Assembly (NCBI RefSeq): GCF_041248615.1
Contig: NZ_CP158426.1
From: Escherichia coli
GTDB taxonomy: Bacteria; Pseudomonadota; Gammaproteobacteria; Enterobacterales; Enterobacteriaceae
DNA: 64,000 bases
Direction: 5' to 3' (one strand)
The stretch's first letter is position 1. Every line of letters begins with the position of its first letter. Of the stretch, positions 4,749 through 50,553 are shown piece after piece. The translations under genes were made by a program, and so were the position numbers. The notes beneath the pieces were generated by a model, which was given only the letters and a program-made list of their open reading frames with translations, ran no database searches and was not told the DNA's origin.

Positions 4749-7699
4749 CAGCGGTACTCCTTACGTTGTTTCTGAGCCAGCAGACGCTCCAGCATTTTTT
4801 CCAGCTCATGCAGACTCATATTCAGGGCACCAGTCAGTCCTGCAGGCGCTGTGGTTTCCCTGCCATTGAGGAAAAACTGAGGATTAAAGCTGACCTGGAT
4901 ACCACCAGACGTTCCACCGCCGGTTGCAGCTGCACCACGGCCTGAATATCCGGCAGTCAGGATTTCAGGCGAGGGGATACGGGGAACATCCGGTGTCATC
5001 TCATTTGCCAGACGTTGCCCTGGTAAAATCGATGCCCGGGTGGGGAGCGGAATAGCGGGCATGGAAGACAAACTATTGATTACGGCTCCGATCGCATTTT
5101 TAGCAGACGACATAAACACATTGATATCGGGCAACGGCATACTGAAGCGAACACCTGAAGTGTTATCCCGTATTTCTGGCCCCTGAATGCTCACGGGCAT
5201 TCTGGGGAGCAGTTCACTGGCCATTCGCTGCCCGGCCAGAGCTGCAAGCGGAGTGGTCCGCTGCAGGCCAATGGCGGCCCCCTGCGCGATATTGTCACCA
5301 AAGCCCATAAACACGCGGCTCGGCGAATGAATGCCCAGCTTTTCGCTGAACCAGCCACTGATGCTGTCGCCCATTCCGGTTACACTGGATTTGAGCGACT
5401 CCCATTTGTTTTTGATACCGTTAATCAGACCATCGACAAGATGGCCACCGAAGTCGGTAAACTTTGCCGGCAGATCAACACCAAGATATTTCAGCGCAGC
5501 TGCAAAGGCTTTATAGAGCAGACCTGCCGGCGACCAGTTAATCAGCAGCTTACCAGTTCCCGCGATACCGCCGTTAAAGGCTTCCTGAATGTCAGCCCAG
5601 CACTGTTTAAACCAGCTACTGATGCTGTCACCCATTCCGGTTACACTGGATTTGAGCGACCCCCATTTGTTTTTGATACCGTTAATCAGACCGTCGATAA
5701 GATGACCACCGAAGTCGGTGAACTTTGCCGGCAGAGTAACGCCGAAATATTTCAGCGCAGCCGCAAAGGCTTTATAGAGCAGACCTGCCGGCGACCAGTT
5801 AATCAGCAGCTTACCAGTTCCCGCGATACCGCCGTTAAAGGCTTCCTGAATGTCAGCCCAGCGCTGTTTAAACCAGCCACTGACTGCCCCCCAGTTGCGG
5901 TAGATAAGGTAAGCTGCTGCCGCGACAGCGGTGATAACGAGACCGATGGGATTCATCATCAGCGCACGTCCAATCCAGAGAACAGCACGTCCGGCGAGCA
6001 TAATTCCGCGAACCAGCCCCCCGGAGAGCACGCCACTCAGTGTTCTGGCTCCTCTGGCGACGGCGCTAAATCCGGTCACCAGCCAGCGGAGCTTACCGCC
6101 TTGCCCCAGTGCGAGCGACAGACGAAGCCAGTTGGCCCGAAGTAAAACAGCATTTTTCCAGACACTTACAAAGGGGGAAATAAGGAGATTCAGCCCCAGT
6201 TTGAGACCAACAGTCGCTATCTTAATCGCAAGGAGCGCACTGATGAGCTTAAAAGCCCCACTGACAAATTGCGGGTGAGTCGCTACCCAGTGTTTTGCCC
6301 CCTGAATGAGTGGAAGCAGTTCCTGAGTCAAAGAAATAAAAGATGGAGCTAATTGATCGCCCAGCGTAATTGCCAGATCGCGACTGCTGACCATAAGTGT
6401 TTTAGTGGCTTCAAGGGGAGATTTCAGCCGCTGATCATAAGCACTGGCAAGCAAATCGTTATCCGCAGCCCTGAGAGCACCGGCACGGATCTCTCGATAT
6501 CTGTCCATGTTGGCCAGCATCGGGCGGATAAATGCCATGACCTGCATATCCGCGAACATATCGCCCAGACCAAAGTTTTTCGCCAGAGCCTGAAGTGCCT
6601 CATCTCTTGCCGTATCATTCTTTATTTTCATGGCTGATTTGAAGCCGGCCAGCGCTTCGGGGCTTTTGGCATTGAGGTAACGTTCTATAACACTCAACAT
6701 CCCTTCAATCGGAGAGATCCCCGCAGCTTTATAACTCGCAATAGATCCCTGCAAATCAATACCCAGATCAGCAAACTGTTTCTGAGTATCGCGGGCAAAA
6801 ATTTTGGTAAGAAAGTTTTTAAAATTATTAGCTGCTTCGTCGGTGGAACCTGCACCGATTTTTGCTATCTGGAGACTGGCCCCGATTTCAGCAACAGCCT
6901 CTTTTCCACTGGCAATACCCGCCATCATTGGGGCCAGGGACTGCATCCACTTGACCTGATCCGGGATTTCAAATGACCCCTGGTCACCGGCATAAGCCAT
7001 AATATTCTGAACGGCACCAAAATCTCTGGCCGCACCTTTCAGGGAGTTTTGCCAGACTGCGGCCACTTTTGCCCAGTCCTGAGCAGACGTGCGTGTTGCC
7101 GTTGCCGCGCGGGCAATATCCGGCATCAGAAAACCGATATCTGACACATTATCAATATTGTCGCTGATGAGTGAACCCACCGCCTCCTGCAGCTCATCCT
7201 GATACTGATTGTATTTAAGCGCCCAGCCTTTTATCTGTCCGGCAAGTGCATCCCGCGTTTTATTGTCATATTTTGCGGTGATCGACATATCAATCATTTT
7301 GTCCTGAAAAGACATGGACTGCTGAACGGCAGGGGAAACCGTATGATAAACAGTCTGTGCCATGCCATACGCTTCAATCCCCTGACCATACAGCGCCATG
7401 CGGTTAGCTTTCAGCGCATCACTGGTAGCGGATGCCGCTGACAGACGGCGCTGCTGGCGCTCAATTTGCTCCATGGTGCGGCTTACCCGCAGCAGCTCGC
7501 TGTTGAGATGCTGCATCCGGGAAGAACCCAGTTGACCATAACGTTCTGTTGCACGGGTTAAAGCGTTCTGACGTTCCTGCAGGCGGCGTGAGGTATCGCT
7601 CAGGGAATCAAGCGCACGGCGGGTACCGCTCATTGCAGAACGGAATGTGCTGCCAATCATCCCGCCGATAACAACGCCGACTGAAAACTGTCCCGACAT
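4748..7699 (-). CDS. Tail tape measure protein
   Basis: 983-aa ORF with coiled-coil N-terminus, hydrophobic central segments and an internal 87-aa tandem duplication; follows the chaperone genes. Confidence 0.85.
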   Translation of the reverse strand: MSGQFSVGVVIGGMIGSTFRSAMSGTRRALDSLSDTSRRLQERQNALTRATERYGQLGSSRMQHLNSELLRVSRTMEQIERQQRRLSAASATSDALKANRMALYGQGIEAYGMAQTVYHTVSPAVQQSMSFQDKMIDMSITAKYDNKTRDALAGQIKGWALKYNQYQDELQEAVGSLISDNIDNVSDIGFLMPDIARAATATRTSAQDWAKVAAVWQNSLKGAARDFGAVQNIMAYAGDQGSFEIPDQVKWMQSLAPMMAGIASGKEAVAEIGASLQIAKIGAGSTDEAANNFKNFLTKIFARDTQKQFADLGIDLQGSIASYKAAGISPIEGMLSVIERYLNAKSPEALAGFKSAMKIKNDTARDEALQALAKNFGLGDMFADMQVMAFIRPMLANMDRYREIRAGALRAADNDLLASAYDQRLKSPLEATKTLMVSSRDLAITLGDQLAPSFISLTQELLPLIQGAKHWVATHPQFVSGAFKLISALLAIKIATVGLKLGLNLLISPFVSVWKNAVLLRANWLRLSLALGQGGKLRWLVTGFSAVARGARTLSGVLSGGLVRGIMLAGRAVLWIGRALMMNPIGLVITAVAAAAYLIYRNWGAVSGWFKQRWADIQEAFNGGIAGTGKLLINWSPAGLLYKAFAAALKYFGVTLPAKFTDFGGHLIDGLINGIKNKWGSLKSSVTGMGDSISSWFKQCWADIQEAFNGGIAGTGKLLINWSPAGLLYKAFAAALKYLGVDLPAKFTDFGGHLVDGLINGIKNKWESLKSSVTGMGDSISGWFSEKLGIHSPSRVFMGFGDNIAQGAAIGLQRTTPLAALAGQRMASELLPRMPVSIQGPEIRDNTSGVRFSMPLPDINVFMSSAKNAIGAVINSLSSMPAIPLPTRASILPGQRLANEMTPDVPRIPSPEILTAGYSGRGAAATGGGTSGGIQVSFNPQFFLNGRETTAPAGLTGALNMSLHELEKMLERLLAQKQRKEYR
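5330..5880. repeat. About 261-bp tandem duplication inside the tape measure gene (two copies plus the start of a third)
   Basis: Near-identical blocks beginning ccagccactgatgctgtc at about 5351 and 5612, partial at 5871; protein repeat WFKQ.WADIQEAFNGGIAGTGKLLINWSPAGLLYKAFAAALKY... twice. Confidence 0.85.
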
Positions 7700-7774: not shown

Positions 7775-8032
7775 CTATGATTTGTCGCCGTACTCGCTTT
7801 TTATTTGCTCTTCAGCCTGCTCCAGCCACATCTCCAGATCGTCAGTATCGAGGGCATCAATCTCCCCCGGCTGAAACCGGAACCATCTCGCCAGCAGCCC
7901 CTGCGCCTGCGTCAGCGCCCTGGTTGCTCTCACCCATCCCCGTGATGAGCTGAAATCGTTTCTGTAACTGCAGGTAATCAGCCAGATCCATATTGTCGAG
8001 ATCTTCCGGGAGAAGACCAGTACTGCGGGCAA
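7775..8032 (-). CDS. Overlapping ORF likely expressed as a frameshift extension of the tail chaperone (E' -like)
   Basis: Open frame overlapping the 3' half of the chaperone gene and extending 28 codons past its stop; frame is +1 relative to the chaperone frame. Confidence 0.5.
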   Translation of the reverse strand: MPAVLVFSRKISTIWIWLITCSYRNDFSSSRGWVRATRALTQAQGLLARWFRFQPGEIDALDTDDLEMWLEQAEEQIKSEYGDKS

Positions 8033-8192
8033 TCAGCGGTTCGTCCCAGTCTGCCGGGTTTTTGCTGATTTTGCGCACCTGCTTCAGGTCTTTTACCGTC
8101 AGGCGTTTCAGTTCAACCAGCTCAATTCTGGTGCCTGCAGCAGTGGTGAAGGGATAAGACAATTTAAAAGTATCGGATGGGGTCTGTGACAT
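7857..8192 (-). CDS. Tail assembly chaperone (Mu/P2 E-like)
   Basis: 111-aa acidic ORF between tail tube and tape measure. Confidence 0.7.
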   Translation of the reverse strand: MSQTPSDTFKLSYPFTTAAGTRIELVELKRLTVKDLKQVRKISKNPADWDEPLIARSTGLLPEDLDNMDLADYLQLQKRFQLITGMGESNQGADAGAGAAGEMVPVSAGGD

Positions 8193-9095: not shown

Positions 9096-10522
9096 CAGTT
9101 GCCCCCTTTCAGGGTTAACAGGTATTCCGAGGTGATCTCAGTCTCATACGTCAGTCGCTCCAGCGGTGGCGGCGGCGTGTATTTGTAGCTCAGCAACAGG
9201 TGACCGGCTGCCAGTTCCGTCTCCGGATTACGGGCCGGATCAAACCAGCAGTTGAAACCCAGCAGTGCACCATCACTAATCATCTTTCGACCGTAGGCGT
9301 TGACCGACTCCGTCAGTGCATCAATCAGCGCCTGAGTAATCGGCATGTCGATGTACTGCTGACTGAAGTAACGAATGGACTCGTTGATCACATCACCGGT
9401 GCGGCGAACATTCTCAAAGTTACGCATATGGGTGACCGTTGGCCATGCTGCCGTCCGGTTACCACACAGACGAAGGCCGCTGCCATAACTGCTGAATACC
9501 GTGGTGATCCCCTGTTCGTTAAGCAGGTTCACCTCACTCTGTGGGTCATCAATCATCGCGGACAGCTGGCGCTCCACACCGGTGATCCCCAGAATCTCCT
9601 GATTGGAGGACGACCACCAGTAGCCCTTGTCCAGATCGACTCTGGCACGCAGACCTGCTGCACGCTGGCTGAGCGGCTCCAGACGCTCCGTGTTTGTCAC
9701 CGGGTCATATACCTTCACATGCGGATAGCACAGACGGACGCGGTCGGAGCTGGTATTGAAGTTAATGGTGCCTTCCGGGCCACGACCTGCCAGAGCCTGT
9801 GCAAAGGTGGTACCGACAGGCGCATCAATGTAGGTTACCGCTCCCAGCTTCTCTGTCATGGCGATAAGCTCAACTGCTACACTCTTCTGGGTGCAGAACA
9901 CCGGCGCAATCAGAATTTTGGCAAAATAGCCGTACAGGTTGAAGCTGTCGTTAAGCAGCTTCATGCCGGTTCGGTTTCCGGCGCTGTTCACCCCGCCGAT
10001 GATGTCCGCCGCAGTCACCTTCGACGGGTCCGCGTACTCATAGCTCACCTTCACGCTGCCACTGGCCTCAATAGCCTTGCCCAGGTTCGTGAGCACACCC
10101 GTCTGCGCATCAACACGGTAGTCCGTGTTCGCCGTGTGGGTGGTGCTGCCTTCACTGTTTTTCACCACCACATTAGCGACAACCGGATGCGCCAGTCTGG
10201 CCTGCCCTGTCGATTTGTCAAAGGTAACCACTTCACCCTGGATCGCCGTTTTATGTTTCGCCGGGTCGAGGACGTTAATGACCAGAACGGTGCCTGCACC
10301 ATGGTCATAAATCGCATCCAGCGCCTGCGGAATGGTAAAGCCGGTGAACTGGCTGCCAAATGCCGCTGCGTCTTTCTCAGACAGGCACTGTACCAGCGTA
10401 TTGACGTCCCCCATCGGGGCGGTACCAATCAGGCCAATAACGGCAGATTTCACCGTTTTAACCGGGCGGGCTCCGTTTTCCACCTCAATGGTTTCGACGC
10501 CATGCAGATAGTTAGCTGCCAT
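9095..10522 (-). CDS. Tail sheath protein (contractile tail)
   Basis: 475-aa ORF; recalled similarity to Mu L / P2 FI sheath family. Confidence 0.85.
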   Translation of the reverse strand: MAANYLHGVETIEVENGARPVKTVKSAVIGLIGTAPMGDVNTLVQCLSEKDAAAFGSQFTGFTIPQALDAIYDHGAGTVLVINVLDPAKHKTAIQGEVVTFDKSTGQARLAHPVVANVVVKNSEGSTTHTANTDYRVDAQTGVLTNLGKAIEASGSVKVSYEYADPSKVTAADIIGGVNSAGNRTGMKLLNDSFNLYGYFAKILIAPVFCTQKSVAVELIAMTEKLGAVTYIDAPVGTTFAQALAGRGPEGTINFNTSSDRVRLCYPHVKVYDPVTNTERLEPLSQRAAGLRARVDLDKGYWWSSSNQEILGITGVERQLSAMIDDPQSEVNLLNEQGITTVFSSYGSGLRLCGNRTAAWPTVTHMRNFENVRRTGDVINESIRYFSQQYIDMPITQALIDALTESVNAYGRKMISDGALLGFNCWFDPARNPETELAAGHLLLSYKYTPPPPLERLTYETEITSEYLLTLKGGN

Positions 10523-10766
10523 GGGAGTCCTCCGTTTTCACTTCGCTGTCACTGCTGCTTCTGCGCTTTGGTGACTGCACAGCCGGTGCGCCGGCGGGTT
10601 TAGTCTCTTCTGGTACCGGCGTCAGGTGCTTCAGTGCCACCAGTACCTTCACATAGTCATGCTCCTCCGGCAGGGAAACAGTCTTCCCCGGCCAGAGCAG
10701 GATTTCGGTTCCGTCCGACAGCGTGACGCCGCTGGCCGGGCCGGAATAGCGGTATGCTTTCATCAC
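10512..10766 (-). CDS. Small phage protein (DUF2635-like)
   Basis: 84-aa ORF upstream of the sheath gene, as in Mu-like phages. Confidence 0.5.
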   Translation of the reverse strand: MMKAYRYSGPASGVTLSDGTEILLWPGKTVSLPEEHDYVKVLVALKHLTPVPEETKPAGAPAVQSPKRRSSSDSEVKTEDSHGS

Positions 10767-24104: not shown

Positions 24105-24293
24105 ATGACTGCAGACCAGGTCAAAGCCCATTTCCGCCGCAATGGGATCACCTTTACCCAGTGGGCAAAACAGAACAACTACACCAGAGCGGAGGTGTAC
24201 CGCGTTCTGAATGGTCAGGTAAAAGCGAACTACGGCAAAGCCCATGAAATCGCCGTCAAGCTGGGATTAAAAACCATCACTGACGCCGCTTAA
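24105..24293 (+). CDS. Small DNA-binding protein, Cro/Ner-like early regulator
   Basis: 62-aa ORF with RBS aaaggagg; HTH-like segment FTQWAKQNNYTRAEVYRVLNG; first gene of the early operon. Confidence 0.6.
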   Translation: MTADQVKAHFRRNGITFTQWAKQNNYTRAEVYRVLNGQVKANYGKAHEIAVKLGLKTITDAA

Positions 24294-24340
24294 AAAGATA
24301 CAGCATACGAAAAAGATTATCACATATTGAAAAAAGAGGT

Positions 24341-24655
24341 GTGCAGATGAGTAAGACGAATGTTTCAAGCTCCGGCAGTCGCATCCTCCGGGTACTTAAA
24401 GCGCTGCGTGGGCATGCCCTGAACGGTATTTCCAATGGTGAACTGGCAGCAGCACTGCACGAGTCACCGGCGAACATCAACCGGGCACTCAACACCCTCA
24501 TTGAAGAAGGGCTGGCTCTGAAACTGGAGAACGGACGTTTCGCACCGGGCATCCAGTTATTACAGATCGCCATGGCACACACTAATGAGATGGCACGAGC
24601 ACAGGATCGTATTAACGAAATCAACCAACGTGTCATTTCAGGTAGTCGTTTATAA
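24341..24655 (+). CDS. Winged-helix DNA-binding protein
   Basis: 104-aa ORF; wHTH-like segment ISNGELAAALHESPANINRALNTLIEEGL. Confidence 0.5.
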   Translation: MQMSKTNVSSSGSRILRVLKALRGHALNGISNGELAAALHESPANINRALNTLIEEGLALKLENGRFAPGIQLLQIAMAHTNEMARAQDRINEINQRVISGSRL

Positions 24656-24665
24656 GGAGTAATCA

Positions 24666-25583
24666 ATGGGACGTACCAAATCACCGGTTAACACTGAACT
24701 GAGCGTCGAGGTACCGCTGTCGGATGATCTCAACGTCAGCCTGAATGCCATGACACAGCATCGCATGGAGATCATGCAGCAGTTTGGCGATGGTCAGCCC
24801 TATGAGCGCGATCGTATCGTGCATGAAGCTCGCTTTTATATGGCACAGAGCGCTGAGGCTATGCTGGAAGCGGGTAAGCGACTGATTATTCTAAAAGAAA
24901 ATGAACCGCATGGTGATTTCATAAATATCGTCGAGTCTGAATTATCAATGTCGAAGCGTACTGCACAGGTCATGATGCAGGCATCAATAAAATATTTATC
25001 ACCACAACTTGGGTCAAAAGCGCAGACGTTTGCGCTTTTAGGAAAAGCAAAACTATTTGAGTTAATGACGGAAGACGATGAAGACCTTGCCGAACTGGCC
25101 GACGGCGGTACGGTTGCCGGCCTGACGCTTGACGATGTTGATCGCATGTCAGTACGTGAACTTCGTCAGGCCCTGCGCGAAGCGCGCGAAACCAATGCAG
25201 CACAACAGCGTGTTCTAGCCGACAAAAATGAAAAAATCGACTCACTCTCCACCAGGCTGGAGAAAAAATCCCGTATTCAACCGCCTGAGCCTGATGAAGA
25301 GGTGAAGAAGCTGCGGGCGGAAGTGACCGCATTAGCGGTTGAGGCGGAATCTGCCATCGCCGTCCGGCTCTCCGGTGCCTTTGAAACCCTGTGTGAATAC
25401 TGCAGTAAAAACATGATTGATACCCCCAGAGATTTCATGGCCGGTCTGGTCTGCCAGATTGAACGCAGTGTTCATGCATTGCGTGAGACGTTCGACCTTG
25501 ATGCCGCACCATCGGGTAACGATGTCCCCGCATGGCTGACCGAACCGGAGCCTGAAATCAACCGACCGGAGGGCATGCGTTAA
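24666..25583 (+). CDS. Early-region protein (DUF3102-like) of unknown function
   Basis: 305-aa ORF between regulators and transposase, translationally coupled. Confidence 0.5.
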   Translation: MGRTKSPVNTELSVEVPLSDDLNVSLNAMTQHRMEIMQQFGDGQPYERDRIVHEARFYMAQSAEAMLEAGKRLIILKENEPHGDFINIVESELSMSKRTAQVMMQASIKYLSPQLGSKAQTFALLGKAKLFELMTEDDEDLAELADGGTVAGLTLDDVDRMSVRELRQALREARETNAAQQRVLADKNEKIDSLSTRLEKKSRIQPPEPDEEVKKLRAEVTALAVEAESAIAVRLSGAFETLCEYCSKNMIDTPRDFMAGLVCQIERSVHALRETFDLDAAPSGNDVPAWLTEPEPEINRPEGMR

Positions 25584-25900
25584 TGAACACGAATAATACA
25601 CAAAATATCCTGATGGACAGCCCGGAAGCACTGGGGCACGCACTGTGTAATCTGCTGCCGGAGATGGTGCAGGGTTTCCGCGTGGTGACACCTTCCGGTG
25701 AAATCTGCGTACCCGCACAGGAGGCGCATCCGTTTGTACTGACGATGGAAGTGATGCTGATGCAGCAGATAAGACGTCTGCAGCATCAGTCAGCATTGCG
25801 CCCGGCAGTTGCGCCGCAACCGGTAAATAACGTGGTGAAAACCTGCGATGGCGAAACACTGTACGACCTCGCCAGAAAAATTGCCGCCAGAATCGGATAA
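25583..25900 (+). CDS. Hypothetical early protein
   Basis: 105-aa ORF overlapping the previous stop by ATGA-type coupling. Confidence 0.45.
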   Translation: MNTNNTQNILMDSPEALGHALCNLLPEMVQGFRVVTPSGEICVPAQEAHPFVLTMEVMLMQQIRRLQHQSALRPAVAPQPVNNVVKTCDGETLYDLARKIAARIG

Positions 25901-25915
25901 CAGGGAAGACAAGCT

Positions 25916-27685
25916 ATGACCCCGGCACTGACTGAAAAACTTGTTGAAACAGCCCGCGCGGCACGTAATGCAGGGCATGGTAAACGCGGTGCAATATACG
26001 ACGCTGCCTGTGCTGAACTTGGCATGTCCCGCGCCACTCTGCTGCGCAGGCTGAAGGAGGTCTCTGTGACTGATAAACGCAAAAAACGCGCCGATGCCGG
26101 ACGCAGCACCCTGACCCGCGACGAAGCCGCGCTGATATCTGCCACACTACGTGAGGCCACCCGCAAGAACGGTAAGCGTCTCTATTCCATCGCGGATGCA
26201 GTGGAAACCCTGCGGGCTAACGGCTTTATCTCCGCAGGCAGAACAGATGAAACTACCGGTGAGTTTTTCCCGTTGTCCGAAGATGCCATCAGTCGTGCCC
26301 TGCGTAACTATGGCCTGCACCCGGAACAACTGGATGCCCCTGCACCGCATACCGAAGTGGCCAGTCTGCACCCCAATCATGTCTGGCAGATTGACGCCTC
26401 ACTCTGCACGCTTTACTACCTGAGCAATGGACATAAAGGGCTGCAGGTGATGGACAGCGCGAAATTCTACAAGAACAAGCCCGCTAACCTTGCCCGTATC
26501 GCCAGTGACCGCGTGTGGAGTTACGAGATTACCGACCATGCCAGCGGCTGGATTTACGTTGAGTATGTGACGGGTGCGGAATCCGGTGAGAACCTGTGTT
26601 CTGTGCTTATCAACGCCATGCAGGAGCGTGGCGGCGCAGACGTGCTGCACGGCGTGCCAAAAATACTCTATCTCGACCCCGGCTCGGCAAACACCGCGGG
26701 TATGACGAAAAACATGTGCCGCTCACTGGGCATCGACCTGATAGCGCACAAGCCGCATAACGCCCGCGCCACCGGACAGGTGGAAAAGGCGCGTGACATT
26801 ATCGAACGCAAGCTGGAGCCGGGTCTGAAGTTCCGGCCGGTTCACAGTCTGGAAGAACTCAACGCGCTGGCCGCGAAATGGCGCAGCCACTTTAACGCCA
26901 CGGCTGTTCACAGCCGCCACGGTAAAACCCGCACGGATATCTGGCTGAAGATTACTGCTGAGCAGCTGAAAAAAGCGCCTTCCGTTGAGGTATGTCGTGA
27001 ACTGGCTGTGGCGGGACCAGAACTCCGCAAAGTCACGCCAAAACTTCGTGTCTCGTTCCGGGGCACTGAATTTGACGTATCAACGGTACCGGGCGTACTG
27101 GTCGGTGAAAAACTGATGATTACCCGTAACCCGTGGCGCAGCGATGTGGCACAGGTGGTTCTGACCGGTGAGGACGGCCACGAGACGTTCTTCCTGGTCG
27201 AAGAGGTCAGAAAGAACGAGTTTGGCTTTGCTGAAGGCGCGGCGGTATTTGGCGAAAGTTACAAAGCCCTGCCGGAAACCCCGGCGCAGATGGCGGCAAA
27301 AGAAACCGAAGCGCTGGTCACCGGTACAGACAACGCCGCAGATGCAGCTGCCGCACGCAAGGCGAAGGCGCTGCCGTTCGGCGGGCGGCTTGACCCGTAT
27401 AAACATATTGATGACGCCACACTTCCGGCCTGTATACCGAAGCGTGGTCAGGCCTCTGACGTACGCGGACCGCGCACTGAACAGCGTCCCATGACTCATG
27501 TGGAGGCCGCGAAAGCCCTGCGCGGGAAGTTTAGCGCAAACGGCCTGACCTGGACGCCGGAACATTACCGCCAGTTAACAGCACAGTACCCGGACGGCGT
27601 ACCGGAAGCCGCACTGGATGAAGTCATGGCCACGCTGACCACGCCGGCCCGCAGCAGCGTTATCAGCATTGTTAACGGCAACTGA
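25916..27685 (+). CDS. DDE transposase A (Mu-like, rve/integrase-core type)
   Basis: 589-aa ORF; N-terminal HTH, catalytic core with candidate D (WQIDAS), D (LYLDPGSANT) and E (GQVEKARD) residues. Confidence 0.8.
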   Translation: MTPALTEKLVETARAARNAGHGKRGAIYDAACAELGMSRATLLRRLKEVSVTDKRKKRADAGRSTLTRDEAALISATLREATRKNGKRLYSIADAVETLRANGFISAGRTDETTGEFFPLSEDAISRALRNYGLHPEQLDAPAPHTEVASLHPNHVWQIDASLCTLYYLSNGHKGLQVMDSAKFYKNKPANLARIASDRVWSYEITDHASGWIYVEYVTGAESGENLCSVLINAMQERGGADVLHGVPKILYLDPGSANTAGMTKNMCRSLGIDLIAHKPHNARATGQVEKARDIIERKLEPGLKFRPVHSLEELNALAAKWRSHFNATAVHSRHGKTRTDIWLKITAEQLKKAPSVEVCRELAVAGPELRKVTPKLRVSFRGTEFDVSTVPGVLVGEKLMITRNPWRSDVAQVVLTGEDGHETFFLVEEVRKNEFGFAEGAAVFGESYKALPETPAQMAAKETEALVTGTDNAADAAAARKAKALPFGGRLDPYKHIDDATLPACIPKRGQASDVRGPRTEQRPMTHVEAAKALRGKFSANGLTWTPEHYRQLTAQYPDGVPEAALDEVMATLTTPARSSVISIVNGN

Positions 27686-27695
27686 GGAGGGAAAC

Positions 27696-28862
27696 ATGCT
27701 GGTACTGAAGCAGCAACTGAAAGAGGCCCGTATTCCACAGGCGGTGGCGGCGAGAGCTGTCGATGTTTCTGAGGCCACGCTGGCCCAGATTGTGAATCAT
27801 AACGCGTGGCCCCGCACCAGCCCCGGAGAAGTGCGCCGGCGTCTTGCGTCCTGGCTGGAAAGCCAGGGGATTGATACAACGAAGAGTTTTGATGCTGTAC
27901 AGGGCGCGGCCACGCCCCGTACAGCGGATACCACAGATAAAACGAGCCTCAGTGAGGAAGAGAATATGTTACTCAAAAAACAGGTGTTATTTCCAGCAAC
28001 CAAAAAAGCGTTTGGTCTTTTCCGTGACCCGTTCGCCGATGAAGCCATGCAGGGTTCTGATGATGTGTTCACCACCCCGGACATTCGCTACGTGCGTGAG
28101 GCGCTGTACCAGACAGCCCGTCATGGTGGGTTTATGGCCGTCATCGGTGAGTCCGGTGCGGGTAAATCCACGCTGCGCCGCGACCTGACTGAACGTATTA
28201 ACCGCGAGAATGCGCCGGTAATTGTTATCGAGCCATACATCATCGCTATGGAAGACAACGATGTGAAAGGGAAAACCCTGAAGGCAGCAGCTATTGCCGA
28301 AGCCATTATCAGTACCATCGCACCACTGGAAAGCATCAGACGCAGTCAGGACGCCCGCTTTCGCCAGTTGCATCGCGTCCTGAAAGACAGCAGCCAGGCG
28401 GGGTTCAGCCACGTTCTGGTGATTGAGGAGGCCCACAGTCTGCCCATTCCGACACTGAAACACCTCAAACGCTTTTTTGAGCTGGAGTCCGGTTTCAAAA
28501 AACTGCTGTCCATCGTGCTGATTGGCCAGCCGGAACTGGCGACAAAACTGTCTGAACGCAATATGGAAGTCCGTGAAGTCGTTCAGCGCTGTGAGGTGGT
28601 CGAACTTCTGCCTCTGGACAATAACCTTGAAGAATTTCTGACGTTCAAACTGCAACGGGCCGGTAAACAACTGACGGACATTATGGACGCCAGCGCAGTG
28701 GATGCCATACGTGCCCGCCTGAGCAATCCGGGAAGTCATCGTAAAAATATGGTCAGCCTGCTGTATCCGCTGGCCGTCAGTAACCTGGTAATAGCCGCCA
28801 TGAATCTGGCCGCTGAAATCGGGGTTCCACAGGTCAACGCTGACGTTGTCAAAGGAGTTTAA
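27696..28862 (+). CDS. Transposition protein B, AAA+ ATPase
   Basis: Start at ATG 27696 after aggaggg; Walker A GESGAGKST and Walker B VLVIEEAH; directly downstream of the transposase. Confidence 0.8.
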   Translation: MLVLKQQLKEARIPQAVAARAVDVSEATLAQIVNHNAWPRTSPGEVRRRLASWLESQGIDTTKSFDAVQGAATPRTADTTDKTSLSEEENMLLKKQVLFPATKKAFGLFRDPFADEAMQGSDDVFTTPDIRYVREALYQTARHGGFMAVIGESGAGKSTLRRDLTERINRENAPVIVIEPYIIAMEDNDVKGKTLKAAAIAEAIISTIAPLESIRRSQDARFRQLHRVLKDSSQAGFSHVLVIEEAHSLPIPTLKHLKRFFELESGFKKLLSIVLIGQPELATKLSERNMEVREVVQRCEVVELLPLDNNLEEFLTFKLQRAGKQLTDIMDASAVDAIRARLSNPGSHRKNMVSLLYPLAVSNLVIAAMNLAAEIGVPQVNADVVKGV

Positions 28863-28864
28863 TA

Positions 28865-46380: not shown

Positions 46381-48956
46381 CGTCCACCTCCGGAGAACAG
46401 GCCACCATCACGCATCTGTGTCTGAATTTCATCACGGGCACCCTTGCGGGCCATGTCATACACTGCCTTCATCATCTGTGGACCTGGCAGACCATTCGTA
46501 CCGTCGTTCTGAATCACCACGTGATTGTTCTGATTAAAATTAATGCCTTCAGCCCGCCGCATCTGCGCCGGACTTCCGGTGCCACCGACATAACCACCAG
46601 TGGCATAGCCGCGCATCAGCCGGTAGAGATTCCCCACGCCAATCCGGCTGGTTGCCTCCTTCGTGAAGACAAATTCACCACGGTGAACAATCCCCGCTGG
46701 CTCATATTTGCCGCCGGTTCCCGTAAATCCTCCGGTCGCAAAATGGAATTTTGCCGCAGCAGCCTGAATGGCTGTACCGCCTGACACTGATGCGCCACCA
46801 CCGGCAGCACCGCCAATGACGCTGCCGATACTCCCGACAATCCCCACCATTGCCTGCTTAACCAGAATTTCTGTCATCATGGACAGCACGGAACGGGTGA
46901 AGCTGCGCCAGTTCTGTTCACTGCCGGTCAGCATCGCCGCCATATTCTGCGCAATACCATCAAAGGTCTGCGTGGCAGCACTTTTAACCTGCGACATACT
47001 GTCCGTGGCGCTCTCTTCCCACTCACTCCAGCCGGACTTCAGGCCTGCCATCCAGCTCCCGCGAAGCAGGTCTTCAGCCGCCCAGGTCTTTTTCTGCTCT
47101 GACATGACGTTATTCAGCGCCAGCGGATTATCGCCATACTGTTCCTTCAGGCGCTGTTCCGTGGCTTCCCGTTCTGCCTGCCGGTCAGTCAGCCCCCGGC
47201 TTTTCGCATCAATGGCGGCCCGTTTTGCCCGTTGCTGCTGTGCGAATTTATCCGCCTGCTGCGCCAGCGCGTTCAGGCGCTCCTGATACGTAACCTTGTC
47301 GCCAAGTGCAGCCAGCTGGCGTTTGTACTCCAGCGTCTCATCTTTATGCGCCAGCAGGGATTTCTCCTGTGCAGACAGCTGGCGACGTTGCGCCGCCTCC
47401 TCCAGTACCGCGAACTGACTCTCCGCCTTCCACAAATCCCGGCGCTGCTGGCTGATTTTCTCATTTGCTCCGGCATGCTTCTCCAGCGTCCGGAGTTCAG
47501 CCTGAAGCGTCAGCAGGGCAGCATGAGCACTGTCTTCCTGACGATCGCCCGCAGACACCTTCACGCCGGACTGTTTCGGCTTTTTCAGCGTCGCTTCATA
47601 ATCCTTTTTCGCCGCCGCCATCAGCGTGTTGTAATCTGCCTGCAGGATTTTCCCGTCTTTCAGTGCCTTGTTCAGTTCTTCCTGACGGGCGGTATATTTC
47701 TCCAGCGGTGTCTGCAGGCGTTCGTAAGCCTTCTGCGCCTCTTCGGTATATTTCAGCCGTGATGCCTCAGAGTCGGCCCAGTCCTTTGCTGCCATCTCTC
47801 TGGCCTTTTCAAGATCGGCCTGCAACGTGGCGGCTGAAAGCCCAAGTTGCGCATTCGCTCTGTCCTCCCATGCTCCCCGGAGATTGGCAAGAAATGCTGA
47901 GGTTTTACCGCGCCGGTGGCTCCGGCTCTGATACCACTGCCATTTTTTGTCCGCCTCATCAAAAGCCTTTTCTGCTTTCTCCAGCATTTCCCGGGCAGTG
48001 TCCGGGCGACCAATATCCAGCACCGAATCCCACATGGATTTGAATGCCCGCGCTGTCCTGTCTGCCCAGGTCTCCAGCGTGCCCATGTTCTCTTTCAGGC
48101 GGCGGGTCTGGTCATCAAACCCTTTCGTTGCGGCCTCGTTCGCCGCCTGCAATGCCCCTGCCTCATCGCCGGAACGCTGCAACTGAGCAACATACGCAAT
48201 CTGCTCCGCCGTCACGTTATGGAACTGACGCGCCATCGCTGTCAGCCCTGACGTCGGGTCTGTGGTCAGCTTCCCGAAGGCTTCAGCGACCTTGTCCACC
48301 TCCACGCCGGATGCAGAGGAGAAACGCGCCACACTCTGGCTGATGGACGCAATCTGAGCCTCACCGCTTACCCCCGCCTTAACCAGTGCGCTGAGTGACT
48401 CGCTGGTCTGGTTAAACGTCAGCCCTGCCGCCTGCCCGGCTCTGGACAGGACCAGCATACGATCTGCCGTCAGACCCGACTGATTGCCGGAAAGGACCAG
48501 CGTTTTGTTGAAATCGGACAGGGTTGAGTTGCCCTGATACCAGGCATACGCCAGCGCACCGGTCGCCACCGCCAGCGAGGTGGCCCCGACCATCGGCAGG
48601 GTGATCGCACCGGCAAGCCCCCTGAACATGGGGATCATCCCGCCGAAGGAGTCCTTCACCTGCCCCCCCTGTTGCAGCAGGATCAGCCACGGACTTTGCC
48701 CGCCTGCAAGCTGCGTGGCCACGTCGGTGAACTGTGCAGGCAGCATACGCATGGCGGCTTTATACTGCCCGACGGAAATCCCCGCTTTCTGTGCAGCCAG
48801 CGCCTGCCGGTTCATTGACTGTTCAACGACTGCCGCTGTTTTTTTCGCATCACTTTCCGTACCGGAAAAATGACGCCTGACTCTGGCCATCTGCTCGTCA
48901 AATCTGGCCGCATCCAGACTTAAATCAACGACCAGATCGCCTACCGGTTCAGCCAT
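46377..48956 (-). CDS. H: Tail tape measure protein H
   Basis: 859-aa ORF in lambda order after G/T. Confidence 0.85.
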   Translation of the reverse strand: MAEPVGDLVVDLSLDAARFDEQMARVRRHFSGTESDAKKTAAVVEQSMNRQALAAQKAGISVGQYKAAMRMLPAQFTDVATQLAGGQSPWLILLQQGGQVKDSFGGMIPMFRGLAGAITLPMVGATSLAVATGALAYAWYQGNSTLSDFNKTLVLSGNQSGLTADRMLVLSRAGQAAGLTFNQTSESLSALVKAGVSGEAQIASISQSVARFSSASGVEVDKVAEAFGKLTTDPTSGLTAMARQFHNVTAEQIAYVAQLQRSGDEAGALQAANEAATKGFDDQTRRLKENMGTLETWADRTARAFKSMWDSVLDIGRPDTAREMLEKAEKAFDEADKKWQWYQSRSHRRGKTSAFLANLRGAWEDRANAQLGLSAATLQADLEKAREMAAKDWADSEASRLKYTEEAQKAYERLQTPLEKYTARQEELNKALKDGKILQADYNTLMAAAKKDYEATLKKPKQSGVKVSAGDRQEDSAHAALLTLQAELRTLEKHAGANEKISQQRRDLWKAESQFAVLEEAAQRRQLSAQEKSLLAHKDETLEYKRQLAALGDKVTYQERLNALAQQADKFAQQQRAKRAAIDAKSRGLTDRQAEREATEQRLKEQYGDNPLALNNVMSEQKKTWAAEDLLRGSWMAGLKSGWSEWEESATDSMSQVKSAATQTFDGIAQNMAAMLTGSEQNWRSFTRSVLSMMTEILVKQAMVGIVGSIGSVIGGAAGGGASVSGGTAIQAAAAKFHFATGGFTGTGGKYEPAGIVHRGEFVFTKEATSRIGVGNLYRLMRGYATGGYVGGTGSPAQMRRAEGINFNQNNHVVIQNDGTNGLPGPQMMKAVYDMARKGARDEIQTQMRDGGLFSGGGR

Positions 48957-49383
48957 ACCGGACTCCTCCTGCGATCCCTTCTGATACTGTCATCAGCATT
49001 ACGTCATCCTCCGTCATGTCCGCCACATCCGGGGAAGCGGGGATAACTTCATTCCCGTCCGGGCCAAAGCGGACACCTCCGGCAAGCCCTGCCGCTTTCT
49101 GCATCAGCACATCATCTTCAGGCTCTTCGTCAGCCTCACGCCGGTTCAGCAAACTGAAATCCAGCGGATGCATATCCGGATCGCTGAAAAACAGGCTGAG
49201 CACGGTGTACGTCAGCCCGGAAAAGTGCATATCCAGCAGAACATCATGAAAATAATGGGTACTGTAAAAGCGGTGCCAGTCGGCATACTCCGTGGATGAC
49301 ATCCCGGCAAGCATGGCACGCCAGTCGGGTCGCCCCATCTCACGCGCCAGTTTCAGGGCAAAACTCAGCTCACCGTCGAACAC
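48949..49383 (-). CDS. T: Tail assembly chaperone T frame (expressed as G-T fusion by -1 frameshift)
   Basis: ORF in -1 frame relative to G, overlapping G 3' end; slippery heptamer GGGAAAG at 49383-49389 (minus strand). Confidence 0.75.
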   Translation of the reverse strand: MFDGELSFALKLAREMGRPDWRAMLAGMSSTEYADWHRFYSTHYFHDVLLDMHFSGLTYTVLSLFFSDPDMHPLDFSLLNRREADEEPEDDVLMQKAAGLAGGVRFGPDGNEVIPASPDVADMTEDDVMLMTVSEGIAGGVRYG

Positions 49384-49787
49384 TTTCCCGCAGAAACAGG
49401 CTCTGCAGGCCCGGCGTCATCTGCCTGTTCAGGGGCATTATTCACCACAAACTCATACATACCGGACAGCCGGTACACCACGTTTTCAGCATGATAAATT
49501 GCCTGTGTGGGCCAGGTGGTAAGCACTTCCTGCTCAATCTGTTTAACGGCTTCATTCATGGAAGGCTGCTTTGTCTTCTGCGGATGGTTATGCCACAGGG
49601 ACATCGCCACCAGAAACGCGCCGGTTCTGATGGCGTCTTCCACAGTAAACTTCCGGTTGCTGTCTGACTCCGCCTGTTCTGCCTGCCGTTTCATCAGGGC
49701 GAGATGCTCAATACGCTGCAGGGCTGACAGTTCAGAAAGCGTGACGGTCACGCCGTTATGTTCAAATTGTTCTGTTTTCAGAAACAT
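49365..49787 (-). CDS. G: Tail assembly chaperone G
   Basis: 140-aa ORF following V; ends ...AGKCSTVS across the slippery site. Confidence 0.8.
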   Translation of the reverse strand: MFLKTEQFEHNGVTVTLSELSALQRIEHLALMKRQAEQAESDSNRKFTVEDAIRTGAFLVAMSLWHNHPQKTKQPSMNEAVKQIEQEVLTTWPTQAIYHAENVVYRLSGMYEFVVNNAPEQADDAGPAEPVSAGKCSTVS

Positions 49788-49800
49788 GTATTACCTCCGT

Positions 49801-50553
49801 TTACCCTGCAGCGCCCGCTTCAGTAACGGTGACTTCAGCCACTGCGGCGAACTGACCATTTCCGCTCACCACAGGGATCTGCACCTTACCTGTCGCCACG
49901 CCGTTTACCGTAATTGTCATATCTTTCACACTAATGGTGGCTTTCGACGGATCGGCGGAAACCGCTCTGAACGTCTTGTCGGTTGCACTTTCCGGCTCAA
50001 AAGAAACCGTCAGGGTGGTTGTTTTCCCTTTTGCCACCGTACCGGATGTCGGCGTCACCTTAATCGCACTGACCGGCGTAATTTTGCTGCGTTCTTCCGC
50101 TACAGAAGGTTTACCCACGTTAGTGACTTTCACCGTGCGGGTGATCACTTCTTTCGCCGTCACCGCCTTACCGATGCTGCTGACCCAGCCGCGGAACACA
50201 TCGACCGTGCCGTTCGGGAAGCGGATTTTATAGGCACGGGTATCACCTTCATTAAACCACGCCAGCAGCGCCTGCTGCCCCTGCTCTCCGGGCATCCACG
50301 CCAGCGTGAAGCTGGTATCTCCGGCGGATTTCTGCCCCTGTCCGGTCGCGGCCCAGTCCGCATCTTCATCATCGAGATAACTGTCGTCATAGGACTCAGC
50401 GGTCAGTTCGCCGGGCGTCAGGTCTTTAACTTTAGCCAGACGCGACCAGTCAACGTCTGAAAGCGGGTTCGCATAAGGGTCACCGTTCCCCTTATAAACC
50501 CACAGTGTGGTCCCGGCCCCTTTCACCGGTGCCAGAGGATTTGGTGTTGGCAT
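49801..50553 (-). CDS. V: Major tail protein V with C-terminal Ig-like domain
   Basis: Start at [22 protein letters not shown]; near-identical in recall to lambda V. Confidence 0.9.

What the first reader, a model, noticed from the sequence alone, without database searches (positions are those of the whole stretch)
48949..49787. Canonical lambda-type G/T -1 frameshift site present
The G ORF and the T ORF overlap with T in the -1 frame, and the slippery heptamer G-GGA-AAG sits at 49383-49389 on the minus strand in the correct phase (G ends ...AGKCSTVS). This supports an intact tail assembly chaperone system in the lambdoid prophage despite the J disruption.
Basis: partly seen in the sequence, partly recalled or inferred. 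Interest (0 to 1): 0.3.

Follow-up and report, generated by a model that had tools for sequence, protein, structure and literature searches.

The report
Ordinary lambda G/T tail-chaperone frameshift site
This is the well-known phage lambda G/T programmed -1 ribosomal frameshift site, carried essentially unchanged in an E. coli prophage, so it is correctly spotted but ordinary.

Summary
On the minus strand, ORF G (49787..49365, 140 aa, ending ...AGKCSTVS) contains GGGAAAG at 49389..49383 in the phase G_GGA_AAG. This is 25 nt before the end of G. The -1 frame is open from there to 48949 and gives a 279-aa G-T fusion.

The window is E. coli NRZ14408 (NZ_LT599825.1). The region is 97.6% identical to phage lambda 9711-10549. 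It matches lambda exactly from 17 nt upstream to 230 nt downstream of the heptamer. T is 100% and G is 95% identical to the lambda proteins. Pfam finds Phage_TAC_2 in G and Phage_tail_T in the -1 frame. The pair lies between V and H as in lambda.

In 81 related loci a shift-prone heptamer (GGGAAAG, AAAAAAG or GGAAAAG) sits at exactly this position. Lambda's site is experimentally established: about 4% frameshifting, gpG:gpGT about 30:1, and the ratio is essential for tail assembly.

The context claim also holds. J is split by an IS1414 insertion with an 8-bp target duplication, while Z to I are full length.

Verdict: already known, low interest. The one open point is a possible 3' stem-loop, and its conservation test was inconclusive. 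Expression in this strain was not tested.

The parts
49365..49787 (-). Gene G: tail assembly chaperone gpG, 140 aa, the 0-frame product (stop TGA at 49367..49365)
   Evidence: ORF and translation. Pfam PF06894 Phage_TAC_2, E=2.2e-58. 95% aa identity to lambda G over 140/140 residues. RefSeq gpG WP_103026087.1.
49383..49389 (-). Slippery heptamer G_GGA_AAG. 0-frame codons are GCG GGA AAG (Ala-Gly-Lys); after the -1 slip the ribosome reads GGG AAA then GTG.
   Evidence: Phase computed. Identical sequence and position to lambda. The same position holds a shift-prone heptamer in 81/81 usable related loci. Lambda site G_GGA_AAG per PMC7618472 and PMC3296357 Table 1.
48949..49383 (-). T segment in the -1 frame: 144 codons plus stop. 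Translated only as the C-terminal part of the 279-aa gpGT fusion (join 49787..49383, 49383..48949).
   Evidence: -1 frame open from 49416 to 48949. Pfam PF06223 Phage_tail_T, E=2.1e-14. 100% aa identity to lambda T. RefSeq lists it as a stand-alone CDS, WP_000459457.1.
49305..49375 (-). Putative 3' stem-loop starting 7 nt after the heptamer. Outer helix 49375-49368 with 49312-49305; inner helix 49349-49334 with 49329-49314. Status unproven.
   Evidence: MFE -38.7 kcal/mol against shuffles -31.2 +/- 3.3, z=-2.25. RNAalifold consensus. 98% of cells paired in 32 distinct relatives, but 14/22 pairs are invariant and only 2 show compensatory change. The stretch overlaps the most conserved T peptide motif, so the test is inconclusive.
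46377..48956 (-). Gene H, tape measure protein (859 aa), the client of gpG/gpGT. Its ATG overlaps the T stop by 8 nt.
   Evidence: ORF. 90% identity to lambda H over its full length. RefSeq 'phage tail tape measure protein'.
49801..50553 (-). Gene V, major tail tube protein, the partner bound by the T domain. It lies immediately upstream of G.
   Evidence: 85% identity to lambda V residues 1-244. RefSeq CDS coordinates. Role of the T domain per PMC5009743.

Best explanation
This is the phage lambda G/GT tail-assembly-chaperone recoding site, carried by a lambda-like prophage of E. coli NRZ14408. Most ribosomes translating G read GCG GGA AAG in frame and stop 6 codons later, which makes gpG (140 aa). 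A small fraction (about 4% in lambda) slip back one base on G_GGA_AAG, so that the tRNA-Gly and tRNA-Lys re-pair on GGG AAA. Those ribosomes continue in the -1 frame through T and make gpGT (279 aa).

Many gpG copies and a few gpGT copies coat the tape measure protein H. The T part recruits the major tail protein V, which polymerises around H. Neither chaperone ends up in the virion.

Shown here: sequence, phase, frame architecture, domain content, synteny, near-identity to lambda, and positional conservation in relatives. Inferred from lambda experiments: that slippage occurs, its rate, and the chaperone function. Not tested: expression in this strain.
For: The heptamer is in phase at 49389..49383, the -1 frame stays open for 144 codons to 48949, and the fusion is 279 aa. 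The region is 97.6% identical to lambda 9711-10549, with no difference from 17 nt upstream to 230 nt downstream of the heptamer. T is 100% and G is 95% identical to lambda. Pfam finds Phage_TAC_2 in G and Phage_tail_T in the -1 frame, and both in the modelled fusion. The gene order Z-U-V-G-T-H-M-L-K-I-J matches lambda, with all but J full length.

A shift-prone heptamer lies exactly 25 nt before the end of G in lambda, PhiR12_2 (GGGAAAG), CP-1639 (AAAAAAG) and N15/phi80/LLS (GGAAAAG). This holds even though overall protein identity falls to 48%. The same is true in 81/81 usable loci overall. N15 and LLS records annotate that position as the -1 frameshift site.

Literature supports the mechanism in lambda. 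There is -1 frameshifting in G-T, a 30:1 product ratio crucial for tail assembly, G binding to H and T binding to V (PMC5009743). The 0 frame is kept about 96% of the time and the rate is sensitive to tRNA-Lys modification (PMC3296357). G_GGA_AAG is highly shift-prone in E. coli (PMC5009743).
Against: There is no direct evidence of expression or of a gpGT product in this strain. The prophage is defective in J (IS1414), so present-day selection on G/T cannot be assumed. The RefSeq record annotates T as an independent CDS rather than a joined one. The heptamer alone is not statistically enriched in the window. G differs from lambda G at 7 of 140 residues, and the effect of these differences is untested.
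Confidence: 0.95

Rival explanations
1. The site is a sequence-intact relic without current function. The prophage is decaying, with J split by IS1414 and a transposable prophage inserted at its distal end. G/T looks perfect only because inactivation is recent, and the chaperone system does nothing for this cell or phage. This rivals the claim of present function, not the identity of the site.
For: J is interrupted by IS1414 with an intact 8-bp target duplication, which suggests a recent event. A Bcepmuvirus-like prophage abuts a truncated YadA-like pseudogene at the distal end of the lambdoid prophage. No expression data exist.
Against: All other head and tail genes are full length. T is 100% identical to lambda T with only two nucleotide changes, both silent. 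Precise loss of IS1414 plus one duplication copy would restore a 1301-aa J. Intact tail modules can also be rescued by recombination with incoming lambdoid phages (established knowledge, not tested here).
Confidence: 0.3
2. T is translated independently from the GTG at 49383, as both the mechanical ORF call and the RefSeq annotation imply. No frameshift would then be needed.
For: the ORF listing and RefSeq both give a 144-aa ORF starting at GTG 49383. The original lambda record J02459 annotates T the same way.
Against: The GTG is formed by the last base of the slippery heptamer itself. I saw no AGGAGG-like ribosome-binding motif in the bases before it, read directly from the sequence. In relatives the corresponding codon is GTC, GCA or GCC, not a start codon, yet the -1 frame is conserved. 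The reviews describe T-frame sequence only as part of the frameshift product gpGT. PhiR12_2 and CP-1639 annotators had to pick different internal starts.
Confidence: 0.03
3. The long product arises by transcriptional slippage, meaning RNA polymerase stuttering on the G or A run, rather than by ribosomal slippage.
For: The site contains short homopolymer runs (GGG, AAA). Transcriptional slippage is used in some analogous length-control systems (PMC5009743).
Against: Runs of three are far shorter than those that support productive RNA polymerase slippage (established knowledge). In lambda the frameshift rate responds to tRNA-Lys U34 modification, which points to the ribosome (PMC3296357). The review explicitly contrasts lambda GT ribosomal frameshifting with transcriptional slippage systems.
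Confidence: 0.01

Closest known systems
Bacteriophage lambda genes G and T (gpG / gpGT), -1 programmed ribosomal frameshift at G_GGA_AAG (Levin, Hendrix & Casjens 1993; Xu, Hendrix & Duda 2013, 2014, as cited in PMC5009743)
   Same: The heptamer, phase, distance to the G stop (25 nt), G/T overlap (19 nt), T/H overlap (8 nt) and flanking genes V and H are all the same. The DNA is 97.6% identical, T is 100% identical and G is 95% identical.
   Different: There are 7 amino-acid substitutions in G. The copy resides in a prophage whose J gene is split by IS1414. H is 859 aa against 853 aa in lambda. Nothing differs at or near the recoding site.
G/T homologs of N15 (gp14/gp15), phi80 and phage LLS, with annotated -1 site GGAAAAG
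   Same: They have the same two Pfam families, the same gene position and a slip site at the identical position 25 nt before the G stop.
   Different: The heptamer is G_GAA_AAG, so the P-site re-pairing is imperfect. The fusion proteins are only 48-54% identical to the window's.
Stx-phage / CP-1639-type G/T with A_AAA_AAG
   Same: The architecture and the slip position are the same.
   Different: The heptamer is A_AAA_AAG, the dnaX-type motif. The G C-terminus has diverged, and T is shorter in CP-1639 (117-aa extension).
P2 E/E+E' and Mu-type tail chaperones (Pfam PF10109 Phage_TAC_7), which use -1 or -2/+1 shifts
   Same: The logic is the same: a short chaperone plus a frameshift-extended form encoded just upstream of the tape measure gene (PMC5009743). 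An example lies in this same window at 8192..7775.
   Different: This is an unrelated protein family belonging to contractile tails. In the window's copy the extension is in the +1/-2 frame, not -1.
E. coli dnaX -1 frameshift at A_AAA_AAG
   Same: Both involve a -1 slip of tRNA-Lys on an AAG codon in E. coli.
   Different: dnaX shifts at about 50% and depends on an upstream Shine-Dalgarno-like element and a strong downstream stem-loop (from my own knowledge, not tested here). Lambda G-T shifts at about 4%, and no stimulator was demonstrated here.

Membership tests
Lambda-type G/GT tail assembly chaperone with -1 programmed frameshift | The upstream ORF is a gpG homolog (Pfam PF06894 Phage_TAC_2) | tested here: met
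   E=2.2e-58, 196 bits against a cut-off of 27, covering profile positions 1-125 of 126. 95% identity to lambda G.
Lambda-type G/GT tail assembly chaperone with -1 programmed frameshift | The downstream segment in the -1 frame is a T homolog (Pfam PF06223 Phage_tail_T) | tested here: met
   E=2.1e-14, 54 bits against a cut-off of 25.9. The frame relation was computed. 100% identity to lambda T.
Lambda-type G/GT tail assembly chaperone with -1 programmed frameshift | An in-phase X_XXY_YYZ slippery heptamer lies within the G/T overlap, just before the G stop | tested here: met
   G_GGA_AAG at 49389..49383, phase 2 of the G frame, 25 nt before the end of G. It is identical to lambda.
Lambda-type G/GT tail assembly chaperone with -1 programmed frameshift | The pair is located between the major tail gene and the tape measure gene | tested here: met
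   V at 50553..49801, G/T at 49787..48949 and H at 48956..46377, all on the minus strand.
Lambda-type G/GT tail assembly chaperone with -1 programmed frameshift | The slip site is positionally conserved in diverged relatives | tested here: met
   81/81 usable loci have GGGAAAG (75), AAAAAAG (3) or GGAAAAG (3) at the same position.
Lambda-type G/GT tail assembly chaperone with -1 programmed frameshift | Two products, gpG and gpGT, are made at roughly 30:1, and T is not made on its own | not testable with these tools
   This is established for lambda (PMC5009743; PMC3296357). It needs protein detection in this strain or from the cloned region.
Lambda-type G/GT tail assembly chaperone with -1 programmed frameshift | Chaperone function: G binds the tape measure protein H, T binds the tail tube protein V, and both are absent from virions | not testable with these tools
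   Inferred from identity to lambda proteins. Function is described in PMC5009743.
Stimulator-dependent -1 PRF signals (dnaX / retroviral type) | A conserved 3' RNA structure 5-9 nt after the heptamer, supported by covariation | tested here: inconclusive
   A stem-loop is predicted with a 7-nt spacer, z=-2.25. In 32 distinct sequences 98% of cells pair, but 14/22 pairs never vary and the 2 compensatory pairs come from one clade. The region also encodes the most conserved T motif.

The most novel reading that the evidence does not exclude
The lambda-type G-T site might not be a bare slippery heptamer. It could be assisted by a conserved 3' stem-loop (window 49375-49305) that starts 7 nt after G_GGA_AAG and overlaps the ELxFxLKLAREMGRPDWRAMLAGM-coding stretch of T. 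This structure would tune the roughly 30:1 product ratio. The evidence here neither establishes nor excludes it. Pairing is kept in 98% of cells across 32 distinct relatives, but almost all pairs are invariant within a conserved peptide motif.
Probability: 0.15. Interest if true: 0.25.

Novelty: already known. Interest (0 to 1): 0.05.

Why it matters
It matters little for discovery, because this is the textbook lambda G/GT recoding site in a prophage copy. Lambda-like tail modules matching this 8-kb region occur in 4468 of 5426 complete E. coli genomes.

Its practical value is for annotation. RefSeq lists T as a free-standing CDS here instead of a joined G-T product. Proteomics searches and functional calls for this strain should therefore use the 279-aa fusion, join(49787..49383, 49383..48949).

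It also shows that the tail-shaft assembly genes of this prophage are intact. The only evident tail defect is the IS1414 insertion in J, which would be reversible by precise excision or by recombination.

Tried and rejected
(1) Heptamer frequency as evidence. GGGAAAG occurs 11 times against 9.0 +/- 3.3 expected, so the count alone says nothing. The argument rests on phase, architecture and homology.

(2) A conserved 3' stimulatory stem-loop. I tested it by folding, RNAalifold on 6 sequences, and pair counting on 6 and then 32 distinct sequences from 81 loci. The result is inconclusive, because the stem lies in a nearly invariant coding motif and the structure was derived from these same sequences.

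(3) Literature on a stimulator. Xu et al. 2013 (PMC3762263) is not held, and the two reviews found give no statement on a stimulator for lambda G-T. My recollection that Levin et al. 1993 found no required downstream structure is unverified.

(4) Independent translation of T from GTG 49383. Rejected, because that codon is not a start codon in relatives while the frame is conserved.

(5) Pfam could not tell which alternative frame extends the second chaperone (the Mu/P2-type gene). Cross-species comparison settled the frame but not the exact slip site.

(6) Heavy tools (structure prediction, large protein searches) were deliberately not used. Near-identity to lambda made them unnecessary.
Full report
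OBSERVATION

- ORF G runs 49787..49365 (140 aa) and ends ...PVSAGKCSTVS*.
- The single GGGAAAG in G lies at 49389..49383. Its first base is the third base of codon 133, so the 0-frame reading is GCG GGA AAG. This is the G_GGA_AAG (X_XXY_YYZ) phase required for tandem -1 slippage.
- The -1 frame is open from 49416 to the stop at 48951..48949. Slipping on the heptamer yields ...SAGK|VFDGELSFALK... and a 279-aa fusion.
- G and the T frame overlap by 19 nt.
- The T frame ends 8 nt inside the start of the next gene, whose ATG is at 48956.

IS IT MORE THAN CHANCE?

The heptamer alone is not. It occurs 11 times in the window on both strands, against 9.0 +/- 3.3 in dinucleotide-preserving shuffles.

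The configuration is. I scanned all 151 mechanical ORFs of >=100 aa. They contain 95 in-phase X_XXY_YYZ heptamers, and ten of these open a -1 frame that runs >=50 codons past the 0-frame stop. The three others I checked (in ORFs 27844-28188 and 25859-25332) lie in ORFs inside or opposite annotated genes. G/T is the only case with the heptamer within 30 nt of the stop.

WHAT IT IS

- The window is 100% identical to E. coli NRZ14408 chromosome NZ_LT599825.1, positions 4547546-4611545.
- The 839-bp region is 97.6% identical to phage lambda J02459 positions 9711-10549, which are annotated G, T and the start of H.
- In the pairwise alignment nothing differs from lambda between 17 nt upstream and 230 nt downstream of the heptamer.
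- The T segment is 100% identical to lambda T at the protein level. G is 95% identical, with 7 substitutions.
- Pfam assigns G to PF06894 (Phage_TAC_2, 'lambda tail assembly chaperone protein G', E=2e-58). It assigns the -1 frame segment to PF06223 (Phage_tail_T, E=2e-14). Both are found in the modelled fusion.
- The surrounding genes follow the lambda order Z-U-V-G-T-H-M-L-K-I-J. Every one except J aligns full length with its lambda counterpart.

CONSERVATION IN RELATIVES

In six annotated phages the slip site sits at exactly the same place, 25 nt before the end of G, although the fusion proteins fall to 48% identity.
- Lambda and PhiR12_2 have GGGAAAG.
- CP-1639 has AAAAAAG.
- N15, phi80 and LLS have GGAAAAG.

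The N15 and LLS records explicitly annotate that position as the -1 frameshift site. A scan of viral contigs with the alignment of fusion proteins returned 80 further loci. Of the 87 loci examined, 81 were usable. All 81 carry GGGAAAG (75), AAAAAAG (3) or GGAAAAG (3) at that position.

In these relatives the codon corresponding to the 'GTG start' of T is often GTC, GCA or GCC. The T frame therefore has no conserved initiation codon. This argues against independent translation of T, whatever the mechanical ORF call and the RefSeq annotation suggest.

HOW IT MOST LIKELY WORKS

The mechanism is taken from lambda, where it was established experimentally.
- Low-level -1 frameshifting links gpG and gpGT at a molar ratio of about 30:1, and this ratio is crucial for tail assembly. 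[quoted passage not shown] Neither chaperone is in the virion (PMC5009743, citing Levin et al. 1993 and Xu et al. 2013, 2014).
- The 0 frame is maintained about 96% of the time.
- The rate rises when tRNA-Lys(UUU) U34 is hypomodified, which reduces phage yield (PMC3296357; PMC7618472).
- G_GGA_AAG is listed among the highly shift-prone heptamers in E. coli (PMC5009743).

The site and at least 230 nt of its 3' context are identical here, and the host is E. coli. The same behaviour is therefore expected. This step is inferred, not shown, because no expression data exist for this strain.

A POSSIBLE 3' STIMULATOR

The 93 nt after the heptamer fold into a stem-loop that begins 7 nt downstream. The MFE is -38.7 kcal/mol, z = -2.25 against shuffles, and 5 of 200 shuffles fold as well. 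RNAalifold recovers it in six relatives.

On 32 distinct sequences 98% of cells pair. However, 14 of 22 pairs never vary, and the two pairs with compensatory change trace to one clade, N15/phi80/LLS. The stretch also encodes the most conserved peptide of T (ELxFxLKLAREMGRPDWRAMLAGM). The structure was derived from these same sequences, so the slide control is biased in its favour. I regard this as inconclusive.

I could not retrieve the primary papers to check what was tested in lambda. The reviews I could read say nothing about a stimulator at this site.

THE CONTEXT CLAIM: 'DESPITE THE J DISRUPTION'

- Lambda J residues 1-836 and 841-918 map to 43999..41492 and 40966..40736. Residues 915-1131 map to 39424..38777.
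- Between them lies an IS256-family IS1414 (RefSeq annotation).
- The IS has 30-nt terminal inverted repeats at 39425-39454 and 40710-40739.
- It is flanked by an 8-bp direct duplication, ACAAACAA.
- Removing the 1315-bp element plus one duplication copy restores a continuous 1301-aa J frame.

The disruption is real, clean and probably recent. The chaperone genes and their partners V and H are intact.

COMPARISON WITH WHAT IS KNOWN, AND VERDICT

All sequence-testable defining features of the lambda G/GT system are met: the G domain, the T domain in the -1 frame, the in-phase heptamer in the overlap, the position between V and H, and positional conservation. The two functional features, product ratio and chaperone activity, cannot be tested with these tools.

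This is a copy of the archetype itself rather than a variant. Matches to this 8-kb tail region occur in 4468 of 5426 complete E. coli genomes. The finding is correct, already known and of low interest. Its practical use is to correct the annotation to a joined G-T CDS.

SIDE OBSERVATIONS

- Window 1-33700 is a Bcepmuvirus-like transposable prophage. It is 99.4% identical over the 511-bp tail-chaperone query to phage PhiKM. It abuts a truncated YadA-like pseudogene at the distal end of the lambdoid prophage.
- Its own tail chaperone gene (8192..7857, Pfam PF10109) is followed by an unannotated 158-nt gap before the tape measure gene.
- A +1/-2 frame extension (...LLARWFRFQPGEIDALDTDDLEMWLEQAEEQIKSEYGDKS*) is conserved through synonymous changes in Klebsiella, Salmonella and Pseudomonas relatives. 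A Pasteurella relative reaches the equivalent motif by -1 at an in-phase G_GGA_AAG.
- This matches the known use of -1, -2 or +1 in different tailed phages, with -2 in Mu (PMC5009743). The exact slip site in the window copy was not resolved.
- The IS1414 copy in J carries an intact 38-aa astA/EAST1 enterotoxin ORF (39952..39836; Pfam PF08090, E=1.5e-25).

Noticed in passing
window 39425-40739 (IS), flanks 39417-39424 and 40740-40747; J fragments 43999-40740 and 39424-38771 (minus strand): The host-specificity gene J of the lambdoid prophage is split by a 1315-bp IS1414. The IS has 30-nt terminal inverted repeats and an 8-bp target duplication, ACAAACAA. Removing the IS plus one duplication copy in silico restores a continuous 1301-aa J frame, so the insertion looks clean and recent.
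   Followed up: yes
window 39836-39952 (minus strand), inside IS1414: An intact 38-aa [41 protein letters not shown], lies within IS1414. It matches Pfam PF08090 'Heat stable E. coli enterotoxin 1' (EAST1/astA) at E=1.5e-25. The IS that broke J therefore carries a toxin gene.
   Followed up: yes
window 7775-8192 (minus strand); probable slip region ~7890-7935: There is a second tail-chaperone recoding candidate. The Phage_TAC_7 gene (8192..7857) of the neighbouring prophage is followed by an unannotated 158-nt gap before the tape measure ATG at 7699. A +1/-2 frame extension ending at 7775 is conserved at the amino-acid level through synonymous changes in Klebsiella, Salmonella and Pseudomonas relatives, while 0-frame C-termini differ. 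A Pasteurella relative uses -1 at G_GGA_AAG instead. None of the records annotates a joined CDS, and locus tag RS22165 is missing in RefSeq. This is probably a Mu-type -2 (or +1) frameshift, but the exact site is unresolved.
   Followed up: partly
window 1-~33700, junction near 33681-34863: This stretch is a Bcepmuvirus-like transposable prophage, 99.4% identical over the 511-bp tail-chaperone query to phage PhiKM. Its late genes are on the minus strand (1-21301) and its early genes, including transposase, Gam and Mor, are on the plus strand (24105-32701). It abuts a YadA-like pseudogene lacking its C-terminus (34051-34863) at the distal end of the lambdoid prophage. This suggests one prophage transposed into the other. 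The other end lies outside the window, so target duplication could not be checked.
   Followed up: partly
window 48949-49383 (minus strand): RefSeq (WP_000459457.1), like the original lambda record J02459, annotates T as a stand-alone 144-aa CDS starting at the GTG formed by the last base of the heptamer. It is not annotated as a ribosomal-slippage join with G. The fusion, join(49787..49383, 49383..48949), is therefore missing from the proteome of this assembly.
   Followed up: yes
window 40966-41492 and 38777-40966 (minus strand): Relative to lambda J, this J has about 170 extra residues between lambda positions 836 and 841. Its last ~300 residues are only ~51% identical to lambda, against 94% identity over the first 836. 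The receptor-binding end therefore belongs to a different specificity type.
   Followed up: no
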